A stretch of DNA of 64,000 bases from Octopus vulgaris. Lineage: Eukaryota. Both the position numbers and the translations under genes were made by a program. Shown piece by piece: positions 31,069 to 33,168 of the stretch. Below the pieces are notes generated by a model. The model saw only the letters and a list, made by a program, of their open reading frames with translations. It made no database searches and had not been told where the DNA came from. Each line of letters starts with the position of its first letter. Position 1 is the first letter of the stretch. The DNA lies in assembly GCA_951406725.2 (NCBI GenBank), contig OX597822.1, positions 107,012,001 through 107,076,000 of the forward strand, written 5' to 3'.

Positions 31069-33168
31069 GCACCTTCGGCATAGCTTTCGGTGCCGTTAAA
31101 GTACACAATCCACAGCACCACAACAAGAATTGCTTGCAGCGGACCCAAATTACTACCTTTTTCCAAATCCAACACCAGTAGCATTTCTGGCATTGTGTAC
31201 CCGCTTATATGAAGAAGAAGAGAGAGAGTTAAATCGATATCCAAGTAATAGCATTCCTGAAAACAGGTTTTCCATTATCTATGCCATTTTATTGCTAGCT
31301 CGATGAGTATATACAAGTTTTAAGCATGCAAGCATACTTTGGTAGACTGACTTTAATATATGTAATAAAAATGTCAACAGAAACTACTTCTTTCTATCCA
31401 ACAGCAATGATACCATATATTCACAGCTTTAAGCATACGTATATTGATCATGCATGTACAGCAACATAATTCCTTTTCTTTTTTTTTTAACATTTTTAAC
31501 TGATATCAACAGAAAATTTGCCTCGTCATGCATCCATCCATTATATAATTCCTCTTAAATATTCACTGTAACACAGCAATACGTAGGTTAGATACGCATA
31601 TCATAGAGACAGGCTGTTTATTTTCTTTGGAATAATTACAATAATAGAGTGTTACCCATCATATGAGGAGTAACTTCGGAAGTATGTTTTTGTCACCATG
31701 GATAATATCATGAAATATGGAACACAATGATTATAGTTGGAGTTATAACAGATCTTTATGTGCTTCTAGAAAATCATGAATCGAATACTAATTTTCAAAA
31801 TAAACATATTTTTTACTTTAAAACTTAATCAAATAAAACAATATTGAAGAATTAAAAATAATAAAAGCAAATTCATGAAATTTCCGTGTTGATTTTATTT
31901 TATGAAATGTCACACACACATACAGTCACCCTTAACGTAATTCAGCGTGTCACAGAGAGTGACAAGGCCGTCCCCTTGAAATACAGGCACACCAGAAACA
32001 GGAAGTAAGAGTGAGAGAAAGTTGTGGTGAAAGAGTACAGCAGGGATCACCACCATCCCCTGCCGGAGCCTCGTGGAGCTTTTAGGTGTTTTCGCTCAAT
32101 AAACACTCACAACGCCCGGTCTGGGAATCGAAACCGCGATCCTATGACCGCGAGTCCGCTGCCCTAACCACTGGGCCATTGCGCCTCCCACAGATAGATA
32201 GAGAGAGAGAGAGAGAGAGAGAGAGAGAGAGAGAGAGAGAGAGAGATAGAGAGAGGGAGAGAGAGAGAGAGAGAGAGAGAGAGAGAGAGAGAGAGAGAGA
32301 GAGAGAGAGGTGACTGTATGTGTGTGTGACATTTCATGAAATAAAATCAACACGGAAATTTTATGAATTTGTTTTTATTATTTTTAATTCTTCAATATTG
32401 TTTTATTTGATTAAGTTTTAAAGTAAAAAATATGTTTATTTTGAAAATTAGTATTCGATTCATGATTTTCTAGAAGCACATAAAGATCTGTTATAACTCC
32501 AACTATAATCATTGTGTTCCATATTTCATGATATTATCCATGGTGACAAAAACATACTTCCGAAGTTACTCCTCATATGATGGGTAACACTCTATTATTG
32601 TAATTATTCCAAAGAAAATAAACAGCCTGTCTCTATGATATGCGTATCTAACCTACGTATTGCTGTGTTACAGTGAATATTTAAGAGGAATTATATAATG
32701 GATGGATGCATGACGAGGCAAATTTTCTGTTGATATCAGTTAAAAATGTTAAAAAAAAAGAAAAGAAATTATGTTGTTGTACATGCATGATCAATATACG
32801 TATGCTTAAAGCTGTGAATATATGGTATCATTGCTGTTGGAGAGAAAGAAGTAGTTTCTGTTGACATTTTTATTACATATATTAAAGTCAGTCTACCAAA
32901 GTATGCTTGCATGCTTAAAACTTGTATATACTCATCGAGCTAGCAATAAAATGGCATAGATAATGGAAAACCTGTTTTCAGGAATGCTATTACTTGGATA
33001 TCGATTTAACTCTCTCTCTTCTTCTTCATATAAGCAGGAATACAATGCCAGAAATGCTACTGGTGTTGGATTTGGAAAAAGGTAGTAATTTGGGTCCACT
33101 CAAGCAATTCTTGTTGCGGTGCTGTGGATTGTGTACCTTAACGGCACCGAAAGCTATGCCGAAGGTGC
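31069..33168. repeat. Long inverted repeat: arms 31069-31930 and 32309-33168, 378-bp spacer
   Basis: The arms are reverse complements over ~860 bp, with about 14 differences by manual count. Confidence 0.95.
31931..32190 (-). mobile_element. SINE-B (3'-truncated) in the inverted-repeat spacer
   Basis: Reverse-complement SINE-B head, followed by (GA)n. Confidence 0.9.

What the first reader, a model, noticed from the sequence alone, without database searches (positions are those of the whole stretch)
31069..33168. ~860-bp, ~98% identical inverted duplication with microhomology junctions
Seen: arms 31069-31930 and 32309-33168 surround a 378-bp SINE-B/(GA)n spacer. The outer right end gccgaaggtgc runs straight into the SINE-A sequence gcccaaggtgc-cacgcagtggg. 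The inner left end acc overlaps SINE-B tacc-cttaacgta. Inference: a recent template-switch fold-back. If transcribed, it would form a very long dsRNA, a likely ADAR or endo-siRNA substrate. Extensive A-to-I editing is established in coleoid cephalopods.
Basis: partly seen in the sequence, partly recalled or inferred. Interest (0 to 1): 0.7.

Follow-up and report, generated by a model that had tools for sequence, protein, structure and literature searches.

The report
Inverted duplication flanking a flipped spacer
An 860-base inverted duplicate sits in apparently non-coding DNA of a likely octopod; it was probably made by an ordinary replication slip that likely flipped the short stretch between the copies and deleted neighbouring DNA, and it would form long double-stranded RNA only if transcribed, which is untested.

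Summary
Arms 31069-31930 and 32309-33168 align over 862 columns at 98.4% (12 substitutions, 10 of them transitions; two 1-nt indels) and have no third copy in the window. Both junctions cut a SINE exactly at an arm end, with microhomology of 3 nt (inner left) and 7 exact / 11 of 12 nt (outer right; chance about 5e-4). A neighbouring older inverted duplicate keeps the uncut SINE-A, so the right junction is derived. The best reading is duplication-inversion-deletion: ancestral X-A-S-D-Z became X-A-rc(S)-rc(A)-Z, probably by two template switches, one at the edge of a 109-nt (GA)n tract. This is the known 'dupINVdel' / 'loss plus inverted duplication' class of structural variant. A hairpin fold-back followed by end joining gives the same product and cannot be excluded. 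The RNA would fold into about 850 bp of duplex, but no host gene or evidence of transcription was found, and inverted repeats are common here (18 pairs within 3.5 kb in this window). An artefact is unlikely but read support could not be checked. An ordinary mutation with a clean anatomy; low interest.

The parts
31069..31930 (+). Left arm (A); inferred original copy, continuous with left flank X
   Evidence: no SINE remnant or target-site duplication at its outer end; continuity with X is inferred, not shown (test uninformative)
31928..31930 (+). Junction J1: 3-nt microhomology (ACC/GGT) joining arm A to the interior of SINE-B
   Evidence: chance of 3 nt or more is 0.049, so weak alone; it coincides exactly with the SINE-B truncation
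31939..31940 (+). Site of a 12-nt deletion in the spacer SINE-B, 9 nt from the arm end, between imperfect 4-nt direct repeats
   Evidence: both intact SINE-B copies (2 of 2 that span this site) carry the 12 nt
31931..32190 (-). Spacer part 1: tRNA-like-headed SINE-B with intact 5' head, lacking about 110 nt of its 3' end
   Evidence: alignment; 97.6% to 33260-33505 and 94.5% to 34233-34488; 'SINE' label from anatomy and recall
32192..32309 (+). Spacer part 2: (GA)n tract, longest of 14 such tracts in the window; abuts the right arm with no junction sequence (inferred native contact)
32309..33168 (-). Right arm, rc(A); inferred new copy; carries a derived 1-nt deletion opposite 31137
   Evidence: homolog P0002 stays in frame with the left arm but is split into two frames on the right arm
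33157..33168 (-). Junction J2: 7-nt exact, 11-of-12-nt microhomology between arm start and SINE-A
   Evidence: P(7 nt or more) = 4.6e-4 in 200,000 random joins; 6 of 440,420 12-mer pairs match with at most 1 mismatch
33169..33245 (-). 5' head of SINE-A, cut at J2; about 300 nt of its 3' part missing
   Evidence: the paired copy at 35109-35476 is full length
33169..33784 (-). Left arm of an older inverted duplicate (partner 34954-35172), interrupted by a SINE-B at 33262-33643 with a 13-nt target-site duplication (33249, 33644)
   Evidence: substitution divergence 5.4% and 7.4%
34954..35172 (+). Right arm of the older inverted duplicate, continuing into an intact SINE-A; serves as internal outgroup for J2

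Best explanation
The sequence holds an 860-bp inverted duplicate around a 378-bp single-copy spacer with SINE-cutting microhomology junctions, most likely a duplication-inversion-deletion variant made by two template switches during replication or break repair. The inferred ancestral order was X - A - (TC)n - SINE-B - D - SINE-A head - Z. A nascent strand likely stalled where A meets the (TC)n/(GA)n tract and re-annealed by 3 nt to the opposite strand inside SINE-B (J1). It would then have copied the spacer and A backwards for about 1.24 kb and rejoined the forward template inside SINE-A through the 11-of-12-nt match (J2), skipping D. The same path run right to left gives the same product. Shown: arms, spacer, both junction overlaps, both SINE truncations, the 12-nt deletion next to J1. 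Inferred: ancestral order, flipped spacer, size of D, stall at the microsatellite, single event. It most likely has no function; it is a neutral structural variant.
For: Arm ends coincide exactly with two SINE truncations. J2 microhomology is far beyond chance (4.6e-4). The older duplicate keeps the SINE-A part lost at J2. J1 lies at the first base of the longest (GA)n tract of 14 (rough post-hoc chance 0.0013), and preformed triplexes stall polymerases 'exactly at their edge' (PMC11667243, passages). A 12-nt deletion lies 9 nt from J1, and 7 of 14 difference columns fall in the 140 nt next to J2 (p = 0.003 by columns), as expected from error-prone restart synthesis (recalled knowledge of MMBIR). 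[quoted passage not shown]
Against: No unrearranged allele or orthologous locus could be fetched, so the ancestral order is inferred from repeats only. The 3-nt overlap at J1 is not significant alone (0.049). Clustering near J2 is not significant once adjacent changes are merged into events (4 of 11, p = 0.087). Triplexes formed during synthesis stall polymerase in the middle of the tract, not at its edge. The native A/(GA)n contact rests on weak support: only 2 of 14 (GA)n tracts are followed by a (TG)3 motif, against a background of 1.6%. The test of left-flank continuity with P0002 was uninformative (score 1 for the left flank, 0 for the right after correcting the anchor, random mean 3.5). 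A hairpin fold-back route gives an identical end product. Confidence is about 0.8 for the architecture and about 0.55 for this exact route.
Confidence: 0.55

Rival explanations
1. Break-induced fold-back (closest to the first reader's idea): a double-strand break in SINE-B, the 3' end snaps back on the 3-nt inverted microhomology to make a hairpin-capped end, the hairpin is nicked about 860 nt away or replicated and broken, and the end is joined to SINE-A by microhomology-mediated end joining.
For: A single-copy spacer bounded by short inverted microhomology is the signature in PMC3907307 (2-8 bp in 13 junctions; passages). J1 has 3 nt and J2 looks like an MMEJ join.
Against: A plain snap-back extension from the left would leave the derived junction on the right side of the spacer, whereas it is on the left, so an extra nick or replication step is needed. 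The published cases go with terminal deletions or dicentrics, and their sequenced spacers are 766-70,466 bp. PMC10766186 argues that interstitial inverted variants need another explanation.
Confidence: 0.22
2. Staggered-break inversion: the 378-bp spacer was inverted by a staggered break 860 nt wide on the left and a resected break on the right, with fill-in creating the inverted duplicate.
For: Gives the same order. Staggered breaks that leave inverted duplications at inversion breakpoints are known in Drosophila (recalled; PMC7584159 seen only as a search listing).
Against: The stagger would be longer than the inverted segment, and microhomology at both junctions plus the 12-nt deletion fit synthesis-dependent joining better.
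Confidence: 0.07
3. Assembly or library artefact: fold-back read, amplification chimera or haplotype mis-join.
For: No reads were available. Whole-genome amplification creates false inverted duplications (PMC6218980, passages). The 1.4% arm divergence is close to the 1.22% heterozygosity reported for O. vulgaris (PMC10700109, passage), so the arms could be two alleles.
Against: Arms of a read-level palindrome should be identical or differ by indel-type errors; here 10 of 12 substitutions are transitions, with CpG-type changes on both arms. Two separate junctions that restore the flank, and a private 12-nt deletion, would have to be invented. Assemblers do not join on 3-11 nt overlaps (general knowledge). 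An older inverted duplicate next door shows that such structures are real here. No plasmid or phage match.
Confidence: 0.07
4. The arms are the long terminal inverted repeats of a foldback/MITE-like DNA transposon, or inverted pseudo-LTRs of a Penelope-like element.
For: The outer 114 nt of the arm has a related sequence elsewhere (P0002, 57% aa, at least 14 of 114 nt different), and the similarity fades about 10 nt from the arm's outer end. Genome-wide copy number could not be checked.
Against: No target-site duplication for any k from 2 to 12. The SINE-A cut at the right end does not resume at the left end. No transposase or RT domain in the scanned frames; no hammerhead or other convincing Rfam match. 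No third copy in 64 kb.
Confidence: 0.05
5. Three-junction event: the spacer is a templated insertion copied from another SINE-B/(GA)n locus, so its contact with the right arm is also derived.
For: Both spacer ends coincide with feature boundaries, and the spacer SINE-B is 97.6% identical to the copy 1 kb away.
Against: The spacer copy has a full 5' head that the 33260 copy lacks, so it was not copied from it. The contact with the right arm has at most 1 nt of overlap. It is less parsimonious.
Confidence: 0.04

Closest known systems
dupINVdel / CNV-flanked inversion (Collins 2017, PMC5338099) and 'loss plus inverted duplication' local 2-jump (Li 2020, PMC7025897)
   Same: Two inverted junctions; a duplicated segment, a single-copy inverted segment and an inferred deletion; microhomology; attributed to copy-and-paste template switching or multi-break repair.
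   Different: Described in human germline and cancer genomes at larger scale (Collins resolution about 5 kb) and against a reference. Here it is 2.1 kb, in a likely octopod, and the deletion is inferred from cut SINEs.
Inverted duplication with deletion, 1-0-1-2-1 pattern (ODIRA secondary rearrangement; Brewer 2024, PMC10766186)
   Same: Same copy-number series in mirror image; a leading-to-lagging strand switch within one fork fits the 378-nt jump at J1.
   Different: No triplicated segment survives here, so an inverted-triplication intermediate is not shown.
Fold-back inverted duplications with disomic spacer (Hermetz 2014, PMC3907307)
   Same: Single-copy spacer bounded by short inverted microhomology (3 nt; published range 2-8).
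   Different: Interstitial and small; no terminal deletion; spacer shorter than their 766-bp minimum.
Inverted-repeat dsRNA substrates of ADAR (Porath 2017, PMC5625713)
   Same: A long near-perfect duplex is predicted; octopus has very high hyper-editing and a high share of dsRNA-forming loci (4.4e-3).
   Different: The stem is low-copy sequence, not a SINE pair; transcription is not shown.

Membership tests
dupINVdel / loss-invDup complex structural variant | One segment present twice in inverted orientation | tested here: met
dupINVdel / loss-invDup complex structural variant | Single-copy segment between the copies, inverted relative to the ancestral allele | tested here: inconclusive
   Single-copy spacer shown; inversion inferred from the position of the derived junction; no reference allele available
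dupINVdel / loss-invDup complex structural variant | Deletion at the other breakpoint | tested here: met
   3' parts of SINE-B (about 110 nt) and SINE-A (about 300 nt) are missing at the junctions while paired copies are intact; total size unknown
dupINVdel / loss-invDup complex structural variant | Microhomology at the junctions | tested here: met
   J2 7 exact / 11 of 12 (p about 5e-4); J1 3 nt (p about 0.05)
dupINVdel / loss-invDup complex structural variant | Both junctions on one molecule | not testable with these tools
   no reads available
Fold-back inverted duplication (Hermetz type) | Single-copy spacer with inverted microhomology at its edge | tested here: met
Fold-back inverted duplication (Hermetz type) | Terminal deletion, translocation or ring after a dicentric intermediate | not testable with these tools
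   Ordinary repeat-rich sequence continues for 31 kb on both sides; whether Z is from the same original locus is unknown
TIR transposon (foldback / MITE) | Target-site duplication flanking the outer ends | tested here: not met
   k = 2-12
TIR transposon (foldback / MITE) | [quoted passage not shown] | tested here: not met
   SINE-A cut at 33169 does not resume at 31068
TIR transposon (foldback / MITE) | Dispersed multicopy family | not testable with these tools
   No third copy in the window; one unnamed protein-level homolog of the outer 114 nt; no cephalopod genome collection available
ADAR / hairpin-RNA (endo-siRNA) substrate | Long near-perfect intramolecular duplex | tested here: met
   853 (plus) and 852 (minus) arm-arm pairs; longest uninterrupted helix 442 bp
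ADAR / hairpin-RNA (endo-siRNA) substrate | Both arms in one transcript | not testable with these tools
   No RNA data; no host gene found in 150 of 266 candidate frames scanned or in searches of arm frames
ADAR / hairpin-RNA (endo-siRNA) substrate | Clustered A-to-G changes or phased 21-22 nt RNAs | not testable with these tools
   no RNA data
Read-level or amplification palindrome artefact | Arms identical apart from sequencing-type errors | tested here: not met
   12 substitutions, 10 transitions, 2 indels
Octopus CORE-SINE OR2 (for SINE-A) | Sequence match to the OR2 consensus | not tested
   Resemblance is recalled; PMC4758252 (passage) only states that OR2 is an Octopus CORE-SINE

The most novel reading that the evidence does not exclude
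This locus is a self-renewing inverted-duplication hotspot: two successive inverted duplications sit side by side, seeded by SINE microhomology and a triplex-forming (GA)n tract. The newest one placed an 850-bp perfect stem just downstream of a TATA box (31004), creating de novo a hairpin-RNA gene that octopus ADAR or Dicer processes. It would be a visible birth event for a long-dsRNA locus from unique sequence, with a natural before-and-after allele pair if polymorphic.
Probability: 0.07. Interest if true: 0.55.

Novelty: new member of a known kind. Interest (0 to 1): 0.2.

Why it matters
As a single variant it matters little: it is a small instance of a structural-variant class catalogued by the hundreds in human genomes. 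Its value is as a clean invertebrate example in which cut SINEs date and orient both junctions and a (GA)n tract sits at one breakpoint. If it is polymorphic and transcribed, the two alleles would give a direct test of whether a new long duplex is at once hyper-edited or diced in an animal with very high ADAR activity.

Tried and rejected
Host gene: Pfam on 150 of 266 candidate frames (E up to 0.05) gave only a mariner-type HTH relic at 57028-57276 below 1e-3 and nothing in the arm region; five arm-related sequences gave nothing at E up to 1. Homolog searches with two plus-strand arm frames against longer proteins found nothing (weak negatives), and the ESM Atlas gave no usable hit. The minus frame 30894-31274 found 1 protein among 1.84 billion, P0002 (52 aa, E 2.6e-6). 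Its minimal differences fall 5/8/1 on codon positions 1/2/3, which does not look like selection on that frame; its source remains unknown. Using P0002 to show that the left flank is native failed (the right-arm anchor was off by one base and was corrected). Structured RNA: Rfam gave only a borderline 5S-like hit at 23069-23151 and one chance match in 30300-35600 (E 0.8). Vector or phage origin: no match. Transposon TIRs: rejected on missing TSD and non-resuming target. Spacer SINE-B copied from the 33260 copy: rejected on the 5' head. Pol III origin of a long dsRNA: rejected, since T4+ runs occur 165 nt after the SINE-A head and at 31866 after the spacer SINE-B. Literature search for cephalopod inverted duplications (63 papers with 3 of 5 terms, 15 listed) showed none on such a locus by title or abstract start; two searches listed only general editing papers. 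Metagenome and viral contig collections stayed unchecked; the bacterial genome collection was not scanned as irrelevant. No paper supplements were read.

Full report
Observation. Self-BLAST aligns 31069-31930 to 33168-32309 over 862 columns at 98.376%, with 12 mismatches and 2 gaps; the repeat finder sees the same pair in pieces. Of the 12 substitutions 10 are transitions; the indels are 1 nt each, one in a T run. The arm matches nothing else in the 64 kb and nothing in the plasmid or phage collections. The spacer 31931-32308 is a minus-strand SINE-like repeat (SINE-B) followed by (GA)n.

Setting. The window is AT-rich, and about a third is masked as microsatellite or repeat. A reading frame through SINE-A hits one Argonauta hians predicted protein at 82% identity over 37% of the query (1 of 5 candidates), which points to an octopod; the species was not determined. 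No host gene was found: Pfam on 150 of 266 candidate frames gave only a mariner relic at 57 kb, and searches with arm frames were blank or nearly so.

Junction anatomy. At the inner left end (J1) the spacer SINE-B stops exactly at the arm boundary. It lacks about 110 nt of 3' end that the copies at 33262-33643 and 34098-34484 keep, and it overlaps the arm by 3 nt. Nine bases from the arm end it also lacks 12 nt found in both intact copies. At the outer right end (J2) the arm runs into a SINE-A head through 7 exact and 11 of 12 matching bases. Random joins reach 7 nt with probability 4.6e-4 and 3 nt with 0.049 (200,000 trials each), and only 6 of 440,420 12-mer pairs between SINE-A and 30700-31930 match with at most one mismatch. 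The other two arm ends show no such scar: the right inner end abuts the (GA)n tract with at most 1 nt of overlap, and the left outer end runs into unique sequence with no target-site duplication.

Internal outgroup. The DNA right of J2 (33169-33784, minus a SINE-B insertion with a 13-nt target-site duplication) is itself an inverted copy of 34954-35172, at 5.4% and 7.4% substitution divergence. In the partner the SINE-A continues for about 300 nt more. So J2 is a derived cut, and the order of events is SINE-A insertion, older inverted duplication, then the SINE-B insertion into it and the 860-bp event (the relative order of these last two is not fixed).

Mechanism. The simplest ancestral order is X - A - (TC)n - SINE-B - D - SINE-A head - Z, and the present order is X - A - rc(spacer) - rc(A) - Z: A duplicated, spacer flipped, D lost. 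I commit to two template switches in one replication or restart event. J1 lies at the first base of the longest of 14 (GA)n tracts in the window (109 nt; rough post-hoc chance 0.0013). A review states that preformed triplexes stall polymerases exactly at their edge, whereas triplexes formed during synthesis stall them mid-tract (PMC11667243, passages), so this support is partial. The 12-nt deletion beside J1 and the excess of differences beside J2 (7 of 14 columns in the outer 140 nt, p = 0.003; but 4 of 11 merged events, p = 0.087) fit error-prone restart synthesis, which is recalled knowledge. One difference can be polarised: the homolog P0002 stays in frame with the left arm and breaks across the right arm's 1-nt gap, consistent with the right arm being the copy. 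CpG-type changes appear on both arms. A break with hairpin fold-back, then a nick or replication and end joining, gives the same product and keeps about 0.22 of my belief. The ancestral order could not be checked against any other allele or species.

Age and artefact. Divergence of 1.4% is young relative to the neighbouring pair. It is also near the 1.22% heterozygosity reported for O. vulgaris (PMC10700109, passage), so the differences may partly be allelic and the event younger still. Amplification does create false inverted duplications (PMC6218980, passages). However, the transition-rich differences, two junctions with SINE microhomology and a private deletion are not what a read-level palindrome or a haplotype join would give. 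I put an artefact at about 0.07, untested without reads.

RNA. Folding 31069-33168 gives 853 arm-arm pairs on the plus strand (-1534.8 kcal/mol, longest helix 442 bp) and 852 on the minus strand. That is only potential. The window has 18 inverted pairs of at least 80 nt within 3.5 kb, some overlapping, covering 5,916 bases; this pair is the longest and most identical. Octopus already ranks at the top for such loci (4.4e-3) and for hyper-editing, mostly in non-coding repeats (PMC5625713, passages). A TATA consensus at 31004 and AATAAA hexamers at 31364, 31799, 31832 and 31860 pull in opposite directions and may be chance. Pol III transcripts from either SINE would stop early in the arm. Rfam finds no ribozyme or other convincing structured RNA here.

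Comparison with known classes. [quoted passage not shown] It shares the spacer and microhomology signature of fold-back duplications but not their terminal-deletion setting as far as can be seen (PMC3907307, passages). It fails the TSD and resumed-target tests for a TIR transposon, though genome-wide copy number is unknown and P0002 shows that a relative of the outer 114 nt exists somewhere. One literature search for cephalopod cases (15 of 63 papers listed, titles and abstract starts only) showed none; most subscription journals are outside the library and no supplements were read.

Verdict. A correctly observed, probably real and probably neutral complex structural variant: a new instance of a known kind, interest 0.2. 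The bolder reading, a recurrent hotspot that has just given birth to a hairpin-RNA locus, has about 0.07 probability and would deserve about 0.55.

Noticed in passing
window 33169-33784 vs 34954-35172: Older inverted duplicate of unique flank plus SINE-A head (5-7% substitution divergence), cut by the new event and interrupted by a SINE-B with a 13-nt target-site duplication.
   Followed up: yes
window 33260-33640 vs 34098-34479; 31940-32186 vs 33260-33505: Closely spaced inverted SINE-B pairs (93.7%, gap 457 nt; 97.6%, gap 1073 nt), further hairpin potential beside the finding.
   Followed up: partly
window 31480-31866: 387-nt run with no difference between the arms (p = 0.003 by columns, 0.017 by merged events); could reflect arm-to-arm gene conversion or errors concentrated near the junctions.
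   Followed up: partly
window 31080-31193: CpG-rich outer part of the arm has one unnamed homolog (P0002, 57% aa); possibly an old repeat or a conserved non-coding stretch.
   Followed up: partly
window 31004-31011; 31364, 31799, 31832, 31860: TATA-box consensus 65 nt before the left arm and four AATAAA hexamers inside it on the plus strand; may be chance in AT-rich DNA.
   Followed up: partly
window 20766-20840 vs 20892-20963: Third low-copy inverted pair in the window, 76 nt at 82%, gap about 50 nt.
   Followed up: partly
window 23069-23151: 5S rRNA-like fragment at the Rfam gathering threshold (38.1 bits) running directly into the head of a SINE-A copy at 23138.
   Followed up: no
window 57028-57276 (minus): Mariner/Tc1 transposase HTH relic (PF17906, E 7e-5).
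   Followed up: no
window 23844-24276 vs 24583-25042: Direct duplicate at 81% embedded among long (TA)n tracts.
   Followed up: no
window 2194-2692 (minus) and 18499-18846 (plus): Reading frames that look by eye like C-terminal LINE fragments (recalled resemblance; Pfam gave no LINE-related match).
   Followed up: no
window 36009-36596 and about 25 related places: A third abundant repeat family with an internal 184-nt tandem unit, forming several inverted pairs within 3.5 kb.
   Followed up: no
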